Below are positions 78 to 60,927 of a stretch of DNA of 64,000 nt, in pieces (position 1 is the stretch's first letter; each line of letters opens with the position of its first letter). A program made the position numbers and the translations under genes. The notes beneath the pieces are model-generated. The model saw only the letters and a list, made by a program, of their open reading frames with translations. It ran no database searches and had not been told where the DNA came from. The stretch lies in the NCBI GenBank assembly GCA_964016885.1, contig OZ024744.1, forward strand, positions 109,306,001 through 109,370,000. Reading direction: 5' to 3'. The DNA is from Eledone cirrhosa (Eukaryota).

Positions 78-2371
78 TTATATTGACAGGATCTTCCTTA
101 GTATATGGGCAGTTCCCATTAGTACTATCTTTTGTATTTCTCCTATACGCGGGTTTCCTGGGATTTGCGATAAGTAATCATAGACCCCTTAGGTATCATT
201 CCCAGAGCGCCTACAACCACTGGTATTGTTTTAGTTCTCAATTTCCACATTTTTCCAATTTCTATCTCCAGGTCCTTATACTTGCTCAATTTTTCAAATG
301 TTTTTATAGATACATTCTTGTCTATTGGAACAGACATATCAATTAGCAGGCATACCCTCCTTTGAAAGTCCTTCAATATTATATCAGGTCTATTTGCATT
401 TATTTTTCGGTCTGTTTGGATGCTAAAGTTCCACAAGATTGAGATGTGATCTTTTTCAAGTATGGGAGGTGGTTGATGCTCCCACCAATTCTTTTGATGG
501 GGCAGGTCAAAATGCTTACACATTATCCAATGTATGTATTGTGCAGCTCTGTCATGCCTGTTTAGGTATTCGGTTGGAGCTATAGGACTGCACATTGAAA
601 TTATATGGTCAATGGTCTCTGGTTGTTTTTTGCATACACGGCATAATGGGCTGCACCCATTTTTTATTATGTTGGCTTGGTAATTTTTTGTTGGCAGACA
701 CTGATCTTGTGCCGATATAATCAGTCCTTCAGTCTCCGATTTCAGTCCAGAGGATGCCAACCACTGATGGGTTAAAGTTTTGTCAACATCAGGATTGTTA
801 GTTCGCTCTGGGTATTTTCCATACAGAGGCTTTTCTTGCCATTTCTTAGCCAGTTTCTGTAGCAGTTCTTTCTTTGCAGTTACTTTTACCTGCTTTGCTT
901 TTTCTGTGTTTTCCATTTCAGCAGTAAATGGGACTTCTGAAATTTGTAGTCCATTACTGTATCTTTGTGCATCTTTTGTAATGGAATATGATCTTTTGGT
1001 GCTTTCGTGTTTCAAAACGAGTTTGATCATCCAATCATGTGATTCCCTTAGATATGTGGATAATCCAATTGTTGCAGTTTTCAACGCAATGTCTAACTGG
1101 ATTAACCCACGTCCTCCTTCTTTCCTAGGGAGATATATTCTATCTATGTCTGCCTTAGGGTGATGCATTCTGTGCATGGTTAAGAATTTTCGGATTTTTG
1201 TATCGAGCCTACGGATCTCTGTGCTTGACCAGTTGATGACATTGTAACTGTAGGTTACTACTGGTATGGCAAGCGTGTTTATGGCATCGATCCTATTCCT
1301 TGCATTCAATTCCGTTCTTAAGATTGCTCTGACTCTGCGGTAACATTCCTTCCTTATCCTTTCCCTCATTGTCGAGTGCTTGATTCCGTCTCCTTCACAA
1401 ACACCTAGATATTTGTAAGTTTTTTCTTGATCAAGCTCTCTTATCACGATCCCCCGATCAAGATTATTGTCTGAACTCTTCAGCAGCTTTCCTCTGGTGA
1501 ACGTTGCTTTGGCGCATTTATCCAGTCCAAACTCCATCTTAATGTCATCACTGAACTGCTTCACAGTGGATAATAGCCCTTGCAATTGTTCATCATTTTT
1601 TGCAAATAGTTTCAGGTCATCCATGTAGAACAGGTGATTAATAGTTTTGTCATAGACTCTATATCCATGTTTTGTTTCATTGAGCATTTTACTTAATGGT
1701 ATAAGTGCGATGCAGAATAAAAGCGGTGATAAAGAGTCACCCTGAAAAATTCCACAATTAATGTTAACTTCTCCAGCTTCCAGTGATTTTGTTTCACTAT
1801 TCAAAAGGAGTGTCGTTCTCCATGTCCTCATACTGAATGACAAAAACCTCCTGACAACGGGGGATATTTTGAAAATCTCTAAACATTTTTCAATCCAACT
1901 GTGTGGCAAACTATCGAATGCTTTTTTATAATCTATCCAAGCAATCGATAGATTTTTGTGTCTATTATGACAATCTTCCAGTATCATTTTGTTAACCAGA
2001 AGCTGATCCTTACAGCCATATGAGCCTCGTTTACACCCTTTCTGCTCAATGGGAAATAGGTCATTTGTTTTCAGGTGGTCATATGTGTATTCAGTTAGGA
2101 CTGATGTTAAAATGTTATACATTGTGGTCAAGCAGGTTATCGGTCTGTAATTTTTGGGATTGTTTGTCTCATCATTCTTCGGTAGCAGGAATGTAATGCC
2201 GTTAACTAGCCATGATGGTATCTTTTCTGGCTCCTTAACTATTTCATTGTAAAGTTGGGCTAACAGCTCATGAGACTCTGTGAAGGCATTTATCCAAAAG
2301 TTTTGTATTTTGTCTTTTCCTGGGGATTTCCATTTGCTGGTTTTTCTTAGAGCCAAGCGCAGCTGTTCAAC

Positions 2372-2373
<2 letters not shown>
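78..2373 (-). mobile_element. 5'-truncated R4/Dong-type non-LTR retrotransposon (RT + CCHC finger + RLE), nearly intact ORF
   Basis: ORF 143..2563 contains the RT motifs NYRPITCL, WIDYKKAFDS, GIFQGDSLSP, FYMDDLK and YKYLG, then CRVC..ETIDHIISMC, RHD, RPDI..D and EK..KY.DL. A frameshift near 180 restores the C-terminus DYLSQIPGNPRIGEIQKIVLMGTAHILRKILSI with stop at 78-80. The poly-I N-terminus is microsatellite read-through. Confidence 0.93.
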
Positions 2374-2462
<89 letters not shown>

Positions 2463-2463
2463 G

Positions 2464-2500
<37 letters not shown>
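2374..2500. repeat. (TAT/TAA)n followed by (TA)n microsatellite
   Basis: Directly visible; abuts the 5' junction of the RLE element. Confidence 0.97.
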
Positions 2501-2503
<3 letters not shown>

Positions 2504-3434
2504 AATATCTTTAAGTCGTTTGGAAGCCTCGACAATGCAAATGGGTAAATCTCCGGGTAACAAGATCCGGTGGTGGAGAGAGAGATGTAAGTGGGTGTAC
2601 GTTGAGATGCGTGATGTGTATAAGATGTGTAGAAGAATGAAGGAAAGAGTATAAAGGATAAAATTAAAATAACAACACGAGAGAGAGTTACCTTGGGAGA
2701 GATTTAATTGTCCCTATATATTTCGGATTCACATCCATCAAATGGGGTTTTTTTCAGGGGTGGGGGAAAGGTTGTCTGTCGGAAAGTTGCGAAACGCGTC
2801 CTCCGCTGTTTGTTGTTTTGAATATCTGAGGTATTCAGCAGAGCGCGCGTGCGCGTGAAATGGGGTCGGTCGGGCAGAGGTCAGCGGCCTAATGAGGGAG
2901 TGGGGTGGCGCTAGCTGTCAGTCCATTCTCTGCCTGTTTGTTAAATGTTACTGAGTGTGTGCAACCAATACTACATAGGTAGCACAATCCGACCTTTGCA
3001 CATCCGGATCAAGGAACACACTAAAACCAGGGCCTCGTCTTTCCGGAAACACATAGACAAATGCGGAAACAAAGACGGAGGCCCATTGTCACAATTCTAG
3101 CGACTGAAAGAAACGTAGGCACGTTACGTATCAAGGAAGCGCTTTTTATCAAACGCCTGCAACCGCAAATAAACAATCGATCCGAGAGAAGCGAAATGAG
3201 ATGGCTGGTTTAAGTTAACAAACGATGCAGCAACACACACACACACAAACGAGACAACTACACACACACAGTAGCATTCCACCATACGAACATACTACAC
3301 TGCCAATACAGAGGAACAAGGCAACAACACACGCACACACACACACACTCAAGCGAAACAACAACACACGCACACACACACGACTTAAAGATATTTACTT
3401 ATTATTCCACAATGCTTCAAGCAGACTTCAATAC

Positions 3435-16439: not shown

Positions 16440-17860
<1,421 letters not shown>

Positions 17861-21072: not shown

Positions 21073-22001
21073 TGGTGAATTGGAGGTATCGGTAGAGGGT
21101 TGGACGCCATGCGGCGATATCCAATTTTAGTGGACTAAATGCTGCTTACGTGCTGTAGTTGCTGCTTACTTCAATGTATGAGGCTATTCCAACAAATTTA
21201 CATTCCCTTTTTTTTAGCCGTTAAAAGAAATATAGATTTATTTATTGTTTTTTTTTTGCGATTTATTTGCCACTGGGGCATAGATTTCTTTATTTGCCAC
21301 GTTTTTGTTTGTTTGTTTGTTTTTTTGCGATTTATTTGCCACTAGATCATTAGGCGGGTAGCGAAAGTAGCAATAATGGCCCGTGTAAGTGGGCAATCTC
21401 TCTATATCGGCTTGTACAGGTAAGAGAAGAAGGGAGCACCCCCCTCTCTCTGTGCTCCCTGGCAGAAAGGTCGCACACTTTCTACGGGGGTGTGTGTGAC
21501 CCCAAAAGGCTGCCTCTCTATCGAGGACTTAATTTTTTATATTCCTTTTTAATCACTCGTTAAATGTTTGTACTTGATTTTTGTAAAAAATTGCCCCGCC
21601 TAATGCTCTAGTGGCAAATAAATCGCAAAAAAACAAACAAACAAACAAAAACGTGGCAAATAAAGAAATCTATGCCCCAGTGGCAAATAAATCGCAAAAA
21701 AAAAAAACAATAAATAAATCTATATTTCTTTTAACGGCTAAAAAAAAGGGAATGTAAATTTGTTGGAATAGCCTCATACATTGAAGTAAGCAGCAACTAC
21801 AGCACGTAAGCAGCATTTAGTCCACTAAAATTGGATATCGCCCGCCATGCTTTCTAGCAAAGTTACGTCCCTTTACAGTCTGAGTTCAAATCCCGCCGAG
21901 GTTAACTTTGCCTTTCATCCTTACGGGGGTCGATAAAATAAAGTACCAGTAATGTACTGAGTAATTTGCTGGCCTTGTGCCTAGAGTAGAAACAATTAAT
22001 C
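21073..22001 (+). mobile_element. SINE copy split by a MITE
   Basis: Head 21073-21112; body resumes at 21843-22001. Confidence 0.85.
21113..21842. mobile_element. MITE with about 250-bp TIRs and 8-bp TSD (MULE/Merlin-like)
   Basis: GGCGATATCC...GGATATCGCC; TSD CGCCATGC at 21105-21112 and 21843-21850; subterminal TTTATTTGCCAC repeated three times per arm. Confidence 0.92.
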
Positions 22002-22567
22002 GGCATAGGTTAAGTTTAACGTCCGAGATAATGAAAGTATATTTTCTGACAAGTGAATGTGTTTTTTTTTTTTTTTTACAATGACAGTTACGATACAGTT
22101 TGTTTATTTACAACAGGTCTCTATAGTGATATGGTGTTAATTAGTATTGCGTGTGTGATTATTTTTTCTTTTTCTTTTTTTGTGTATTGTGTGTACGGAA
22201 AATGACATTGTGTGTTGAAAGAAATACATTTTTTAAAATAACTACATAGTTAGACGGTCTAATAAGGATGTTGATAAGGTACGTCAATTTATATGTTATA
22301 TGCAACAAACGTCTCACTATGTAGTTATTTTTAAAAAAATTTCTTTCTTTCAACACACAATGTCATTTTCCGTACACACAATACACAAAAAAAGAAAAAG
22401 AAAAAATAATCACACACGCAATACTAATTAACACCATATCACTATTGAGACCTGTTGTAAATAAACAAACTGTATCGTAACTGTCATTGTAAAAAAAAAA
22501 AAAAAAACACATTCACTTGTCAGAAAATATACTTTCATTATCTCGGACGTTAAACTTAACCTATGCC
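22002..22567. mobile_element. MITE with about 210-bp TIRs and 9-bp TSD (MULE-like)
   Basis: GGCATAGGTT...AACCTATGCC; TSD CAATTAATC at 21993-22001 and 22568-22576. Confidence 0.92.
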
Positions 22568-23221
22568 CAATTAATCTATATGAAGGACTACATTCATGTA
22601 TTTTTAAACTCCATTAAGTTTCGTGTGAGCAGATGATGAGGAACAGCAAATGTTTTCTAACCCAGGGCTGCTAGTTACTTTAATCCTGTCCTGCAGGAAG
22701 GCAGTATTCATCCTTTGGATTCCAGCTGCTACGGGTACTCCTTTTGGCAGCTGAATGGTCTAGAGCCAATATAAAATAAAGTGAAAGCTGTGCACCTTCA
22801 CCGATAGTGTACCCTTTTTCTTTCAGAGTTTTGGGTATTTGGCTACATTTCTAAGGCTAATAAACAGCATATCGAGTTTTCCTAAATGGATAAAAAATTG
22901 ACAATTGGAATAATTCTTACTTTAAAACATCTGTTAACATTGAAGATACAATATATTGTCAAAGATCTATAAACTATAATCGTTCAGTACAGGGAGGTTA
23001 CAGAATGATTCAACGACAGAAACTTTTAGCTGCTTTATAGATGTCCTTCCTTTTCACCTTTTTATTTATTTATTTATTTATTTATTTATTATTATTTTTT
23101 TTAAATTATTATTCACGTTTCTTTTCCTCCTTGTTGTCTATCCTCTTTCTTTCACTTGTTCTCCCTCTGTCTCTTTTTGTTTAAATTGATTAAATAAATA
23201 GGTTTGCTACTTTCTCGGCAG

Positions 23222-26648: not shown

Positions 26649-26724
<76 letters not shown>

Positions 26725-26730
<6 letters not shown>

Positions 26731-27270
26731 TAAAATAACAAATTAAAGTTTAAGCAAAGAATCGCTGCTTTCACCCTTAACGGGATCTTCTGAAACTAAA
26801 AAAGTCAATCTGTGAACGCAGAAGTAAATATTTCAAAAAACGTTGCAACTGAAGGAAGACAGGAAGACGATACTTTGGTTCGTGGAAACGTTCCCTGGCA
26901 AAGAACGGATAAAGACAAAGATAATACGTATCAGGAGTTTTAGGTATGTTTTCCTGCTTGGTACGGGTATGTTCTTTATAGAAATATTCAGATGTTGTTT
27001 CTGCATGATGAATATAAGTCAATAGAGTGCTCAACCGAGGGAGCCAAATACCTAAGACTCCTGATATGTAATATCTTTGTCTTCATCCGTCTTTGCCATG
27101 GAACTTTCCACGAACCAAAGTATCGTCTTTCTGTCTTCCTTCGGTTGCAACATTTTTTGAAATATTTACTTCTGCGTTCACAGATTGATTTTTTTTAGTT
27201 TCACAAGATCCCGTTAAGGGTGAAAGCAGCGATTCTTTGCTTAAACTTTAATCTGTTATTTTAATAAATA
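26725..27270. repeat. Fold-back element, arms about 225 bp
   Basis: 26725-26945 is an inverted match to 27048-27270; bounded by (TA)n. Confidence 0.85.
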
Positions 27271-27354
27271 TATGCTCTACGGTTCTTATATATTTGATAT
27301 ATATTTATCATTATCGAGCCCTCTTTGGATTTTAGTTTTCAAATTTATTATTAT

Positions 27355-34007: not shown

Positions 34008-36742
34008 CTAAAGGAATAAGGGTGGGGAGTTCAGGACGGGGGGAGTGTGGGTCTGTAAGATGAAGATAGTTCTTTGTTCGACTCTAAGGCGATTGGCGGG
34101 TGTTCCGTGGCATTGGAGTAGGCCCCAGACTGTGAGATGGCGGCGTGCGGAATGTCCAGGGCCACCAAAGTGGCGGGCGATGGGGGAACTACCACCGAGA
34201 CGAATATCCCGGAGGTGCTCAGTGAATCGGTCCGCCAGGCGACGTCCCGTCTGTAGACTAGGTTGGAGGAGGTGCAGCGGAAGGCATGCCGGACAGAGAG
34301 AGAGTGGCCGTTGGGACCCTGGAAGGTGGTGGTGTTGGTGATGTGGGGATAGGTGTTGCAGCGGGGCCTAGAACAGGGAAAGGAACCGGGGGGGGGGACA
34401 GAGCGTGGGTTGGGGGTAGGGAGCTGTGGACGAGGAGGGTGCGGAGATTGCGTACGCGTTTGAAGGAGGGGAGTGGTGGGGTTGGGAAGATGTGGGAGGT
34501 GGAAGGGTCGGACTGGAGGCGTCGGAAGGGGCGGCGGATGGTGCGGTGGAGGTGTAAGGTGGAGGGGTGGTAGGTGATGGGGATAGGGGAGACGGTGGGT
34601 GGGTGTGCGGTGGCGTGGGGTGAGGGTGGTGGAGCGGGGGACAGCACGGGCGCGGGTGAGAGCGGTGTGGACGAGAGAGGGGGGTAACCTCTGCGGATGA
34701 AATGGTTGACTAGGGAAAGGGCCTGGGACTCGAAGTCAGCCTCTCGGCTACAGAGGCGGCGGATCCTGAGAAGTTGGGAGTAGGGAATGGAGTGTTTAGT
34801 GTGGGTGGGGTGGGAAGAGGTGAAGTCGAGGTAAGAGTGGGAGTCGGTGGGTTTGAAGAAGGCGGAGGTGACGAGGCATGGTGGGAGGGGTCGAAGGCGA
34901 CGGAGATGTCTAAGAAGTGGACGTGGGTGGTGGAGATAGAGGTGGTGAAGTGGAGGGAGGGGTGGAAGGAGCAGAAGAAGAAGAGAAAGGAGTCGAGCTG
35001 TTCTCGGGTGAGGGTCGTGGCTCCGATACAGTCGTCGATGTAACGACCGTACAGTTCGGGCGTGGGGCCGGTGTACTGGGCAAAGATTTGGGCCTCAACA
35101 TGGCCAACAAAAAGATTGGCATAGTTCGGACCCATTCTTGTACCCATGGCTACCCCCGTGACCTGTTGGTAAAACTCACCCGAGAAGGAGAAACAATTGA
35201 GGGTGAGGACCAGCTCGGCGAGGCGAAGGAGAGTGGGGGTGGAGGGAATGGGGGAGGGGCGAAGGTCGAGGTAGTGTTTGAGGGCGCGTAGGCCGTCGGC
35301 GTGGGGGATGACGGTATAGAGGGACTTGATATCTAGGGTGAAGAGGAAGGGCTGTGGGCCGGGTGGTAGGTGAAGGAGTCGAAAAGGCGCAGGGCGTGGT
35401 TGGTGTCAGAGATGTGGGAGGGGAGGGTGGTGACAAGGGGGGCGAGGATGGTGTCGAGAAAGGGGGAGATGAGTTCAGTGGGGCAGTTGCAAGCGGAGAC
35501 GATGGGGCGGCCGAGGTTGTCGGGTTTGTAGAGTTTGGAGAGGAAGTAGATGGTGGGGGTGTGGGGGGTGCGGACGATGAGGTGGGAAGCAGTGGGGGGA
35601 GGAGGGAGGAGGCGATAAGGTCTTTGATGGTGGAGGAGACTTGTTGTTGGTAGAGGGGGGTGGGATCGGAGGGTAGAGGGCGGTAGAAAAGGGGGTTACA
35701 GAGCTGCCTGAGGGCTTCGGCCGTGTAGAGGTCCGCGCACCACACCACTACGGCGCCTCCCTTGTCCGCCGGTTTGATGACGATGTCATCTCGGCTACGG
35801 AGGGAGCGGAGAGCGAGGAGTTCGCCCCGTGAGATATTGTACCGTTTGGAACGGTGGCGGAAGTCGAAACGATTTACTGCGCTACGGCTGGCATCGACGA
35901 AGGCGTCCAGGGTGCTAAATTGCCCTGGGGCCGGCGTCCAAGAAGATGGTCGTCGGCCCAGGGCGAGAAACGGGTCTGGGGCGTCCGGAGCAGGTGGCGT
36001 TCGGCCGAAATGTGCCTGTAGCTTAGTGCGTCGCACGAATCGCTCGACTTCCGTTCGGGTGCGGAACTCGTCGCTGTGCGGAGTGTAGGGTATGAAGCGA
36101 AGGCCTCTACTAAGGAGTGAGCGCTCAGGTGCGGAGAGGGGGAGGTCAGGGGGTATGGTGGCAACAAGTGGTGGGGTTTGGGTGTTGGGGGGGGGGAGAT
36201 TGGGTAGGGGGGGTCGAGGGAGAGGTGGTGAGTGGTGGGCGTATGGGGCTGGGCGGGTGGTGGTGGATGGGGGTGGTTGGGAGGAGTGAGTGTAGCTTGC
36301 GGGCTTTGGTGGAGCTGAGGAAGGAGAAGAGGTTGTGGTTGAGGTTTTGGATGAAGGAGAGGATGGCTTGGGCGAGGAGGGGGTGGCAGGTGGAGTTAAG
36401 GCGGAGGAGGGTGGGGGTCAGTTGGTGGTCAAGTTGGCGGAGGGTGGAACGGGAGGCGCGGATGGAGTTGCGCATCAGGAGGCGTGAGGATCGGGTGAGG
36501 ATACGTTGCGTGGAGGGGGAAGCGGTGGGGGAAGGGTGGAAGTGTAGACGGAAGCCGAGGGGGATAAGGTGGAGGCGGAGGCAGTGGCTGATGAAATGGA
36601 TGTGGCTGGAGTGTCGGGTTTTGGCGAAGAGAAGGTAGGAGAGTTGAAGGGCAGAGGGGAGATAGCAGGGTGGAAGGAGGGGGGTGAGGAAAAGTTTGAG
36701 GCGATTATGTAGTTGGTGGAGAAAGGATCTCAGGCTGGGCAT
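34008..36742 (-). pseudogene. PLE RT/GIY-YIG ORF, frameshifted
   Basis: IKPADKGGAVVVW, LSKLYKPDNLGRPIVS, LDIKSLYTVIP, GVAMGTRMGPNYANLF, YGRYIDD, QTGRRLADRFTEHLRDI; the CxxC-YIG segment is deleted at about 34255. Confidence 0.9.
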
Positions 36743-47257: not shown

Positions 47258-48911
47258 ACCTTCAAAGGGTTCTGACAATGAACCTAAGTGCTAGAAACAG
47301 GTTATGACCCTCCATGGGAAGGTACAACTGCTGGATATACTCCGGGAAAGCAAAACTTATGCCGCAGTAGGTTGCTATTATGGTGTCAATGAAAGCACCA
47401 TATGCCACATAAAGAAGAACGAGGCAGTGATCAGGACTACCATAGCAGTAAGTTTCTGTGAAAGTACCAAAAAGATAACGACAGTGAGAAATAAGCACTT
47501 CGTCAGGATGGAATCTGTCTTGGAATTGTGGATCAATGACTGCAACATCATCCGCAAGAAAGTGCGGAAATTATACCAGCAGTTCAATAGAGGAGATGGC
47601 GCAGAAGGTACCGAAGAACTGCAATCAGAACCATCGATAACACCAGAGCCTGAAAATTTCCAAGCCAGCAAGTGGTGGTTTGACTGTTTCCAGAATAAAG
47701 TATGTTTCCCAGCATAGAGAGGCAGCATCAGCTGACAAAGAAGCCGCCGAGAAGTACCTCGAGACCTTCAAGCAGATCATCGAGGACAATAGATACAAGC
47801 CAGAACAGGTTTTCAATATGGATGAGACTGGCTTGTTATGGAAGAAGATACCAGAACATACATTATGAAGGACAAAGCCAGATCCTCAGGATTTAAGGCA
47901 CAGAAGTACAGAGCACATTATGTGTGGCAATGCTGCTGGCATCATGATGAAACCAGGCCTTATCTACAACTCCGCGAACCCAAGGGCCTTCAATAATAAA
48001 AATAAAAACTTGCTGCCTATCCACTGGATGTACAACCCCAAGGCCTGGATTACCGAAAGTCTAACTTTGAACTGGTTCCACCAATGCTTCATCCCTCAAG
48101 CCAAGGAATACCTCCACATTGTATCCATGGTATTCAAGGTGTGGCTAGTTATGGATAATGATGGCAGTCACTCTTTGGATTTGTATTACAAGGGAGTCAA
48201 AGTCCAGTTCCTCCCTGCCAATACCGGATTCCTCATCCAACCTATGGACCAAGGCGTGATCTGTGCCTTCAATGCACTTTACACTCGGAACTCTCTCCAA
48301 CATCTTGTGGACACAATGGACTTGGACGAGAATTTCAAGTTAAAGGGGTATTGATATAACTTCATGATCGCAATGTGCCTGTCAGTCATCCAAGCTCCTC
48401 TTAAGGACATAAAATAAAAACTCTCAACGCATGCTGGAAGAAGGTGTGGCCAGAGTGTGTCTAGGACTACCAGGAGTTCTCACCTGAAGAAATTCAGCCC
48501 GAGGCTGTCGATTGGCAAAGGTACTTGGTAACGAAGGATTTGATGACATCATGCAAGATGAGGTCAACAACCTCATCGATGCCCACTCTGAACCCCTGAC
48601 AGACAAGGATTTGTTAACCAAGTCTGTCAGCGAAGAGGAAGAGGGACTGACAATAGAAACATCTGTCTGACCTTTTAAGGACAGCAAAGGAGTTGCCAGG
48701 GAAGGCGGAAGCATGGGATCCCTATATGGTTCGGTCTCTCCAATTTAAAAATGCCATCGATGCTGCAGATATGTAAAACTCTCCTCACCACCACGAAGAA
48801 ACAACAACAGCAACATGCCATCAAAATGTTCCTCAAACCGAACAACAAAGCCTTGCATGAAGATATGACATCTGAAATGCCCAAAGAGGAGGCACCACCA
48901 GAGGACCTCTA
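47258..48911 (+). pseudogene. Tigger/pogo (TIGD1-like) DDE transposase, frameshifted
   Basis: HTH-psq (KVQLLD..YGVNESTICHIKKNE), CENP-B HTH (FQASKWWFDCF), FNMDETGLLWK, MDNDGSH, FLPANT..IQPMDQGVI. Confidence 0.9.
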
Positions 48912-59158: not shown

Positions 59159-59389
59159 ATATAGAAATCACTTCTACAGTATTAGAACTGTTTCATTCAT
59201 ATGGAATAAAAAAATTCTTATACTAAAACAACGTATTGAGTACCTTTTAAACTGTGGATACCCCCCCCCCCCGGCACAATCCAGGTATCTACACACACAC
59301 ACACGTATATATATATATATGTATATATATATGTATATATATATGTATATATATATGTATATGTGTATATGTATATGTGTATATATATA

Positions 59390-59763
59390 TATTGGTAAAA
59401 GGAAAAGAAAATGCTGACAAATTGTTCCCAGTGAAAAATAGTTTAATTCGGAATAATTGATAATTAGTAATAGTATTAGTTAGTATTCAGTTTTGGTTTT
59501 AAGTTTTTACCGGTTGCGCATTTCTAATGCTTTTCAAAAATAATTTTGAGATAGAGCGCCCATCATTAGATTAGAACAAACATCACGGGCGCTCTATCTC
59601 AAAATTATTTTTGAAAAGCATTAGAAATGCGCAACCAATAAAAACTTAAAACTAAAACTGAATACTAACCAATACTTATTAGTATAATTTTTACTTATTC
59701 CTAATTAAACTATTTTTCACTGGGAAAAATTTGTCAACATTTTCTTTTCCTTTTACCAATATA
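59390..59763. repeat. Fold-back element, arms about 175 bp
   Basis: 59390-59561 is inverted at 59587-59763. Confidence 0.88.
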
Positions 59764-59868
59764 TCATAACTCGTGTGTTACACCTCTATTCTTTTAAATA
59801 TATATATATATAGTCCAGAAATATCCGTCGAAACGGCTTGAGCTCTGCCGTCGGGTCTTGAACATTTT

Positions 59869-59902
<34 letters not shown>

Positions 59903-60032
59903 AAGTATGTTTTGAAACAGTGAGCGAGTTTGAAATTAGAAAATATATAGCTTTCACCGTATTTTTAACTAAAGGAATTTTAGCTTGATAACGGGGTTTA
60001 GAACCCTCAGATAAATGGAAAAAGATGAGTAT

Positions 60033-60103
60033 TGACGTACATGGGAGTCGAACCCACATCTGTGGTTATCGCGACCACTGTGCTACCATTACACCAACAC
60101 ATC
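60033..60103 (-). tRNA. tRNA-like sequence (non-canonical; probably element-borne)
   Basis: GATGTGT TG GTGT AATGGTA GCAC A GTGGT CGCGATA ACCAC AGAT GTGGG TTCGACT CCCAT GTACGTC A; all four stems pair, but U33 is absent. Confidence 0.5.
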
Positions 60104-60311
60104 ACCCATCTCTCTCCATTCAAATTAGAAACTACATTCTTAGCGAGTTTAAATGGCAAGTAAGTATGTTTTGAAACAGTGAGCGAGTTAAAAATACGGT
60201 GAAAGCTATATATTTTCTAATTTCAAACTCGCTCACTGTTTCAAAACATACTTACTTGCCATTTAAACTCGCTAAGAATGTAGGTTCTAATTTGAATGGA
60301 GAGAGATGGGT

Positions 60312-60382
60312 GATGTGTTGGTGTAATGGTAGCACAGTGGTCACGATAATCACAGATGTGGGTTCGACTCCCATGTACGTCA
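60312..60382 (+). tRNA. tRNA-like sequence, second copy
   Basis: Same fold; anticodon arm GTGGT CACGATA ATCAC; followed by a TTTTT run. Confidence 0.5.
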
Positions 60383-60464
60383 ATACTCATCTTTTTCCAT
60401 TTATCTGAGGATTCTAAACCCCATTATCAGGCTAAAATTCCTTTAGTTAAAAATACGGTGAAAG

Positions 60465-60501
<37 letters not shown>

Positions 60502-60927
60502 CATATATATACATTCACAGGAACAGAGGAGAGATTTGTGAATGTGTTATTATGTATATATTTATGTGAAGATTCAGGGAGTAAGAGCGAGAGAAAGAGA
60601 AAGAGAGTGAGAGTGAGACGAAGTTGTAGTGAGGAGGAGGAGGAGGAAGGGGGGGAGAAGCAGGAGGGGGTATGTGTAGGAGGAGGAGGAAGAGCAAGAG
60701 GAATGGTTAGTATGTTAAAAAAGGAAATAAATAGAAAGTAACATAATGGAATATGGAGTGGTGGGAAGTTTAGGTTGTAACAAGCAGTTTTGGTTAAATT
60801 TACTTGAGGCCATATTATATGACAAGTCTGAATGAAATGGCCCTGTCCATTAGACTCAATATGTTGGACATTCTGAACATTTTGAAAATTCCCACATGTA
60901 GTGTGTAGCTTGAAAAGGGGGGAAATA

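What the first reader, a model, noticed from the sequence alone, without database searches (positions are those of the whole stretch)
59900..60470. 259-bp non-coding unit combining a full tRNA cloverleaf with a hammerhead-like end, inserted head-to-head in (TA)n
Seen: two terminally redundant 259-bp monomers in inverted orientation. Each holds an internal 71-nt cloverleaf with intact A/B boxes and all stems paired (changes between copies keep pairing by G-U), a T5 run, then CTGAGG(A/G)...CGGT-GAAAGCTA. Known: PLE-mobilised non-LTR retrozymes are 150-400 bp HHR-bearing tandem units, whereas SINEs normally carry the tRNA at the 5' end. Inference: this may be a Pol III-driven or tRNA-processed retrozyme/SINE hybrid mobilised by PLEs. 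The HHR stems I and II are weak, so catalysis is uncertain.
Basis: partly seen in the sequence, partly recalled or inferred. Interest (0 to 1): 0.8.

Follow-up and report, generated by a model that had tools for sequence, protein, structure and literature searches.

The report
tRNA-headed hitch-hiker of Penelope retrotransposons
This 259-base repeat carries a tRNA look-alike but no intact hammerhead ribozyme; it has spread through an animal genome both as scattered insertions with the end pattern of Penelope-like retrotransposons and as one 276-kb tandem array, so it is likely a Penelope-dependent counterpart of SINEs.

Summary
The two inverted 259-bp arms, the cloverleaf and the (TA)n flanks are real. 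The hammerhead is not. The CUGANGA core occurs in 2 of 215 dispersed and 0 of 201 array copies, and stems I and II do not close.

The unit belongs to a multi-subfamily repeat, with at least 1,190 exact hits in a 3.0-Gb genome. Its insertions have the Penelope-like element (PLE) pattern: partial tandems, head-to-head inversions, (TA)n targets, and a ~40-bp tail on exactly one arm in 47 of 48 pairs. A 290-bp subfamily also forms a 276-kb head-to-tail array of about 950 units.

5' ends pile up at the 3' strand of the tRNA T-arm (66 of the 92 arms that get that far). They pile up less strongly at the tRNA start (11 of 40), which suggests a folded tRNA barrier in the RNA template and a Pol III start.

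Best reading: a ribozyme-free, tRNA-headed non-autonomous PLE. No partner PLE, no RNA data and no two-sided covariation were found.

The parts
59901..60195 (-). Left arm: unit positions 7-259 plus the long 3' tail (unit 1-42)
59901..59934 (-). PLE-type 'tail': stretch between the short 3' ends (unit 259/267) and the long 3' end (unit ~301-311), present on one arm only
   Evidence: 47 of 48 pairs have it on exactly one arm
60186..60472 (+). Right arm: unit 232-259 plus a full unit, ending at the short 3' end that runs into (TA)n
60186..60195 (.). Head-to-head junction, 10 nt shared by both arms
60033..60103 (-). tRNA-like cloverleaf of the left arm (loop CGCGATA, G33)
   Evidence: 44.3 bits
60312..60382 (+). 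tRNA-like cloverleaf of the right arm
   Evidence: 41.3 bits
60319..60329 (+). A box TGGTGTAATGG (predicted Pol III promoter element)
   Evidence: sequence; shared by subfamilies, partly by construction of the search pattern
60361..60371 (+). B box GGTTCGACTCC (predicted Pol III promoter element)
   Evidence: sequence
60372..60377 (+). Unit 159-164: family-wide hotspot of 5' truncation and inversion, 3' strand of the T-stem, with overlapping palindromes CATG/GTAC/ACGT
60294..60311 (+). 5' strand of the predicted 18-bp stem that closes the tRNA
60385..60402 (+). 3' strand of the closing stem; contains the T5 run (60392-60396)
60405..60467 (+). Hammerhead look-alike (CTGAGGA, 48 nt, GAAAGCTA): not a conserved core, rejected as a ribozyme
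59871..59899 (.). (TA)n target, left side
60466..60511 (.). (TA)n target, right side

Best explanation
This is a non-coding, multi-copy tandem unit with a tRNA-like head and no intact hammerhead core, whose insertions have the end pattern of Penelope-like elements, so it is likely copied by a PLE reverse transcriptase/GIY-YIG endonuclease acting in trans, with the tRNA part likely serving as an internal RNA polymerase III promoter. Steps: (1) inferred: tandem copies are transcribed from the A/B boxes with read-through of the T5 run, or by read-through from outside, giving RNAs longer than one unit; (2) inferred from the PAc mechanism: a PLE protein cuts both strands of (TA)n and starts reverse transcription at two internal sites of the RNA (unit ~259/267 and ~301-311); (3) shown: the two arms end at these different sites, one long and one short; (4) shown: most arms stop on entering the 3' side of the tRNA, and inferred: this is a stall at the folded and possibly m1A58-modified T-arm; (5) inferred: the two cDNA ends join through short palindromes or AT microhomology, giving head-to-head inserts; (6) shown: one subfamily also exists as a 276-kb satellite, and inferred: it grew from an insertion by DNA-level amplification.
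For: Copy number: 1,190 exact 27-mer hits, control 0; 1,250 D-to-T-arm hits; 892 hits for the young 3' motif and 528 for an older one. Anatomy in 69 loci / 117 arms: 48 head-to-head pairs, 47 with the long tail on exactly one arm (p 1.7e-13 against independent arms); 110 of 117 3' ends have (TA)3 within 20 nt. Craig et al. 2021 describe the same features for PLEs: partial tandems, an inverted 5'-truncated copy, a 30-40-bp tail on one end, (TA)n. Frangieh et al. 2024 show a PLE protein extends both strands, starts at two internal sites that bracket the tail, and does not need HHR cleavage in vitro. In-genome control: one inverted pair of a GIY-YIG PLE (L260) shows the same one-sided tail. The genome holds many GIY-YIG RT elements. 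5' ends: 25 arms stop 3' of the tRNA, 66 stop at unit 154-169 and 26 pass (0.045 against 0.003 stops per nt); 43 of 69 loci are involved, and 11 of 21 single-arm loci stop at 159-164. 11 of 40 tRNA-bearing arms start within -7..+8 of tRNA nt 1 and none at -25..-8. The array starts in (TA)n at tRNA nt ~7. 29 of 40 arms extend further upstream (to -492), which needs multimeric or circular templates.
Against: No autonomous partner found. The 3' part of the unit had no significant match in 108 non-family loci (520 kb, including 50 GIY-YIG loci), apart from two stray family copies, nor in the published Naiad/Chlamys/Hydra consensus file by 8 short motifs (two motifs hit only Chlamys-file sequence). 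No RNA data, so Pol III transcription is untested, and the T5 run 10 nt behind the tRNA could terminate it. No two-sided covariation: 0 of 39 pairs, 500 of 500 shuffles at least as high, so selection on the fold is not shown. The stop peak (159-160) lies 4-5 nt 3' of the position expected for an m1A58 stop (155) and coincides with three overlapping palindromes, so microhomology contributes. The two arms of one locus are not independent. The 69-locus sample is all from one contig. The D-arm anchor cannot see starts beyond +8.
Confidence: 0.7

Rival explanations
1. PLE-mobilised as above, but the tRNA is only a passenger. The RNA comes from Pol II read-through or from arrays, and the tRNA merely blocks reverse transcription.
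For: 29 of 40 tRNA-bearing arms extend upstream of the tRNA start. T5 sits just after the tRNA. Most inserts lack most of the tRNA. In the array the tRNA is no better conserved than the rest (0.049 against 0.035 divergence). No covariation.
Against: The tRNA core is kept in all four subfamilies while the anticodon loop changes. There is a cluster of starts at tRNA nt 1. Keeping a strong RT barrier would be costly if it did nothing (inference).
Confidence: 0.15
2. A true retrozyme: a degenerate or dimeric hammerhead cleaves multimers into circles that a PLE copies.
For: GAAAGCT is kept in the subfamilies sampled and AGCT is palindromic, as in dimer-acting minimal HHRs. The unit size and tandem habit fit retrozymes. 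A circular template would explain arms longer than one unit.
Against: CUGANGA in 2 of 215 dispersed and 0 of 201 array modules (the search was anchored on the GAAAGCT motif). No Rfam HHR hit. Stem I cannot close. Coding PLEs in this genome do carry CTGANGA..GAAA cores.
Confidence: 0.05
3. The tRNA fold replaces the ribozyme: RNase P/Z cut multimers into units that are ligated or circularised.
For: Full cloverleaf in the main lineage. The closing stem would hold cut ends together. The youngest subfamily gained a G-C pair at the top of the anticodon stem.
Against: 0 tRNA-less joined copies in the genome. Inserts begin inside the tRNA (159-164), not at the RNase Z site (170). The mobile 290-bp subfamily has two outer acceptor pairs broken.
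Confidence: 0.06
4. An ordinary LINE-dependent tRNA-SINE with twin-priming inversions, or DNA-level (satellite/Helitron) spreading.
For: tRNA head, about 210 nt from tRNA start to the long 3' end. An R4/Dong-like RT ORF lies in the same window. A large satellite exists.
Against: The arms duplicate the same sequence instead of splitting one RNA, as twin priming would (mechanism recalled). One-sided tail in 47 of 48 pairs. No poly(A) or simple-repeat tail of its own. The upstream spacer is copied along in partial tandems.
Confidence: 0.04

Closest known systems
Animal non-LTR retrozymes (Cervera & de la Pena 2020, PMC7229834; Li, Clavereau & Pollet 2026, 10.64898/2026.07.22.740005)
   Same: Short AT-rich non-coding tandem units, from monomers to long arrays, proposed to be non-autonomous PLE derivatives.
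   Different: They are defined by a type I hammerhead in each unit, which is absent here. This unit carries a tRNA with A/B boxes; 'tRNA' has 0 occurrences in the 2026 preprint.
Schistosome Sm-alpha / Sj-alpha (via PMC2770079 and PMC8490949; the original paper was not held)
   Same: tRNA-derived (Gln) SINE-like repeat that occurs dispersed and as a satellite-like W-element.
   Different: Sm-alpha has an active type I hammerhead; this family does not. PLE-type tails were not described for it in the passages read.
PLEs of the Neptune/Hydra/Naiad clades and non-autonomous Chlamys elements such as MRC1 (Craig et al. 2021, PMC8557442)
   Same: (TA)n targeting, partial tandems, inverted 5' copy, one-sided 30-40-bp tail. 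Naiads and most Chlamys lack a canonical HHR. Head-to-tail non-autonomous derivatives exist.
   Different: No ORF here. MRC1-type elements resemble their partner's 3' end, whereas no partner was found here. No tRNA head was described in the passages read.
TRIMp3: Cassandra, Helenus, Ajax (Kojima 2024, PMC10886601) and tRNA-SINEs
   Same: Small-RNA-gene-derived Pol III promoter inside a non-autonomous retroelement, with promoter boxes conserved and tRNA function doubtful.
   Different: Those use LTR (PBS, PPT, 4-5-bp TSD) or LINE machinery; this shows PLE anatomy. 'Penelope' has 0 occurrences in that paper.

Membership tests
Non-LTR retrozyme | Type I hammerhead core CUGANGA...GAAA...UH with stems I and II in each unit | tested here: not met
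   2 of 215 dispersed and 0 of 201 array modules have CTGANGA; no Rfam hit; no HHR fold in linear, circular or junction folds
Non-LTR retrozyme | Short non-coding tandem units | tested here: met
   259- and 290-bp units, dimers and a ~950-unit array
Non-LTR retrozyme | Self-cleavage and circular RNA | not testable with these tools
   no RNA holder listed; bench test needed
Non-autonomous PLE | Partial tandems and inverted 5'-truncated copy | tested here: met
   48 of 69 loci head-to-head; partial tandems
Non-autonomous PLE | 30-40-bp tail at one end | tested here: met
   47 of 48 pairs; same pattern in one coding PLE pair
Non-autonomous PLE | Microsatellite (TA)n targeting | tested here: met
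   110 of 117 3' ends; no background rate was computed
Non-autonomous PLE | 3' end shared with an autonomous PLE | tested here: inconclusive
   none in 50 GIY-YIG loci out of 10,596 candidates; many 3' UTRs were not fully covered
tRNA-SINE | tRNA-derived head with A and B boxes | tested here: met
   the source tRNA was not identified
tRNA-SINE | Single-orientation inserts from head to an A-rich or simple-repeat tail, LINE-type anatomy | tested here: not met
   duplicating inversions, partial tandems and two fixed 3' ends
tRNA-SINE | Pol III transcription | not testable with these tools
   only indirect: 11 of 40 starts at the tRNA head
Functional tRNA gene array | Canonical anticodon loop and conservation above flanks | tested here: not met
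   G33/T37 loop, anticodon differs between subfamilies; array tRNA diverges more than its spacer

The most novel reading that the evidence does not exclude
This is the Penelope counterpart of SINEs (LINE-driven) and TRIMp3 (LTR-driven): a class of Pol III-transcribed, tRNA-headed, ribozyme-free elements mobilised by PLEs. Its hundreds of genomic 5' ends record reverse-transcriptase stops at a folded, m1A58-modified tRNA arm in the germline template RNA, and single insertions can seed very large satellites.
Probability: 0.4. Interest if true: 0.75.

Novelty: new variant of a known kind. Interest (0 to 1): 0.6.

Why it matters
If right, it fills the missing third case of Pol III-promoter parasites (SINE for LINEs, TRIMp3 for LTR elements, this for PLEs) and shows that PLE hitch-hikers need no hammerhead. 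That bears on the open question of what the HHR does for PLEs. The family is also a natural experiment on PLE insertion. Two fixed start sites and a sharp stop give exact predictions for the in vitro PLE assay, and the dispersed-plus-array distribution links retrotransposition to satellite birth. In practice such units inflate tRNA gene counts, since ARAGORN calls them tRNA-Ser.

Tried and rejected
Hammerhead on the sense strand: rejected.

Hammerhead on the antisense strand: TTGANAA..GAAA occurs in 97 of 215 dispersed modules and CTGANGA..GAAA in 3 of 201 array modules. The GAAA lies about 10 nt past the hairpin with no stem III or cleavage triplet (by inspection), so this was rejected too.

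Sister families with a full core before GAAAGCTATA: 31 hits against 14 for the control; the 30 loci fetched show no link to the unit.

Autonomous partner: none found. The output was cut, so the BLAST was repeated.

tRNA-excised junction copies: 0. Covariation: none.

Source tRNA: not identified. Host tRNA-Gln shares the D-arm apart from 1 nt but not the other arms. The Rfam genome search scored only 63 candidates and returned Thr genes and other repeats. Phage tRNA-Trp is the best but weak BLAST match (83% over 51 nt, E 1e-3). A viral-contig pattern gave 0.

Expression: no RNA holder listed, which is no evidence either way. The contigs laid show only that related sequence occurs in two other coded organisms.

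A recalled Pfam accession was not in the library. The Ferbeyre 1998 paper was not held. The Helitron-like reading of the sequence beside the array got no Pfam support.

Full report
OBSERVATION. The window holds two arms in inverted orientation, 59901-60195 (-) and 60186-60472 (+), 97% alike, with 259-bp redundancies and (TA)n on both sides. Each arm has a 71-nt cloverleaf with A and B boxes and a T5 run behind it. The anticodon loop reads CGCGATA, with G instead of U at position 33. An 18-bp stem closes the tRNA; the 146-nt region folds at z -3.35, with 1 of 200 shuffles as stable. Unit coordinates below count from window 60214 = 1, so the tRNA is unit 99-169. The host is a 3.0-Gb animal genome. 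It looks like an octopus to me from recalled repeats, which I did not test.

FAMILY. A 27-mer from the tRNA 3' end has 1,190 exact hits, control 0. A D-to-T-arm pattern has 1,250. 3' motifs have 892 (young) and 528 (older). The best full copies are 95-97% identical to the window copy. Four subfamilies emerge: an older one with loop CTGGATA (U33); a middle one with CGCGATA; the young one, which also gained a G-C pair at the top of the anticodon stem; and a 290-bp one. Contigs of two other coded organisms hold related sequence. In run X1 the young diagnostic base is nearly absent (99% other letter at 60062).

ARRAY. The strand imbalance (432 against 818) led, through, to a head-to-tail array of the 290-bp subfamily at C28:19,440,624-19,716,546. 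I counted 927 full units within 10-kb pieces, about 950 in all. Within it the tRNA is not better conserved than the spacer (0.049 against 0.035). One end starts in (TA)n at about tRNA nt 7.

INSERTION ANATOMY. I took the first 100 listed of 892 hits, all on contig C1. They make 71 loci; 69 were analysed and two were not refetched. I dropped two older-family hits in L121 and a 35-nt internal piece in L134, and kept arms of at least 88% identity plus those of L136 and L156. Of 117 arms, 3' ends fall at unit 242, 258-269 or 295-312. Of 48 head-to-head pairs, 47 have the long end on exactly one arm, none on both and one on neither (p 1.7e-13). 110 of 117 ends have (TA)3 within 20 nt. Craig et al. 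describe this pattern for PLEs (PMC8557442 and its preprint: passages; supplement parts 1-2 and two searches). Frangieh et al. show that a PLE protein extends both strands from two internal RNA sites that bracket the tail and does not need HHR cleavage (PMC11167929, passages). One inverted pair of a coding GIY-YIG element in this genome shows the same asymmetry (L260).

5' ENDS. 25 arms stop before the tRNA, 66 stop at unit 154-169 (59 at 159-164) and 26 pass; that is 0.045 against 0.003 stops per nt. 43 of 69 loci contribute, and 11 of 21 single-arm loci stop at 159-164. The junction sequences differ between loci (12 types among 21 loci that matched the junction pattern). Older-family arms start in the same region, which argues for repeated events rather than one truncated master. 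Against a pure modification stop, m1A58 (unit 154; its RT-blocking effect is recalled) predicts 155, whereas the mode is 159-160 on overlapping palindromes. I infer a stall at the folded T-arm followed by trimming to microhomology. Among 40 of 41 tRNA-anchored arms that could be scored (some pairs share a locus), 11 start at -7..+8 of tRNA nt 1, none at -25..-8, and 29 further upstream. Eight of those 29 lie at -180..-212, at or near the same barrier one unit earlier. So templates were often longer than one unit, and the cluster at the head fits a Pol III start or a second structural stop.

HAMMERHEAD. CTGANGA precedes the GAAA in 2 of 215 dispersed modules (one is the window's right arm) and in 0 of 201 distinct array modules. 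Rfam finds no HHR, stems I and II do not close, and coding PLEs of this genome carry proper cores. The GAAAGCT may be a remnant, which I cannot show. tRNA processing is also unsupported: no tRNA-less junctions, and the 290-bp subfamily breaks two acceptor pairs. On 34 chosen copies 93.6% of cells pair, but no pair changes on both sides and all 500 shuffles score as high. The fold is therefore inherited, and selection on it is not demonstrated.

PARTNER AND SOURCE. The genome has abundant GIY-YIG RT elements (10,596 candidates, 150 scored). Fifty such loci, among 108 non-family loci searched, showed no match to the unit apart from two stray family copies, so the partner is unknown. The source tRNA is unknown.

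COMPARISON. It works like a non-LTR retrozyme (PMC7229834, passages; Li et al. 2026, first fifth of the text and a term search) but fails the defining hammerhead test. Minimal PLE HHRs are described in PMC4209133 (first quarter read). The tRNA-plus-HHR hybrid is known as Sm-alpha (PMC2770079 and PMC8490949, passages; the original paper was not held). Small-RNA promoters in LTR parasites are known as TRIMp3 (PMC10886601, passages). Mollusc SINEs were checked by passages (PMC4758252), but the sequences of the octopus OK/OR SINEs were not available to compare. Nine literature searches listed no description of a tRNA-headed, HHR-free PLE derivative. The library lacks most subscription journals and Repbase/Dfam were not searchable, so prior annotation cannot be excluded. 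bioRxiv supplements were not seen. Three earlier AI reports from other genomes describe similar elements. They are unchecked leads, not support, but they suggest the kind may be widespread.

VERDICT. A real, recently active repeat family. It is most likely a ribozyme-free, tRNA-headed non-autonomous PLE (anatomy about 0.9; the full model with a Pol III promoter 0.7). New variant of a known kind; interest 0.6.

Noticed in passing
G000:C28:19,440,624-19,716,546 (L296-L311, L314-L325): 276-kb head-to-tail array of the 290-bp subfamily on the same contig as the window (927 full units counted). It starts in (TA)n at the tRNA head and is cut at the other end by a coding-like stretch that looks by eye like a Helitron helicase region (no Pfam support).
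   Followed up: partly
L268, L270-L278 (ten loci): A second, unrelated dispersed family with an internal high-scoring tRNA cloverleaf (Rfam 53-72 bits, anticodon variable), about 310 bp from a fixed end that starts with a short hairpin at TA. No tandem or inversion within the 1.7 kb checked; DNA-transposon- or Helitron-like by appearance.
   Followed up: partly
window 143-2713 (-): Open frame of 856 aa with an RT domain (RVT_1 E 5e-28) and a C-terminal Zn/REL-like region, next to (TAA)n. The R4/Dong-like label is recalled. No link to the unit was seen.
   Followed up: partly
window 59387-59764: Separate 378-bp fold-back palindrome (89% self-complementary) just left of the finding.
   Followed up: no
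window 21995-22575, 26721-27273, 17067-17393: Further long palindromic inserts, possibly other PLE-type head-to-head insertions.
   Followed up: no
window 34713-35405 (-) and 47869-48351 (+): Fragments with a weak RT match and a DDE_1 transposase match.
   Followed up: no
L312:5200-7800: Inverted pair of a GIY-YIG-bearing element (Hydra-like by recalled motif) a few kb from the array end; no match to the unit.
   Followed up: partly
G000:C1:168.21-168.28 Mb; C6:47.25-47.30 Mb; L267, L269: Clusters of ordinary tRNA-Gln genes and tRNA-Thr tandem clusters.
   Followed up: no
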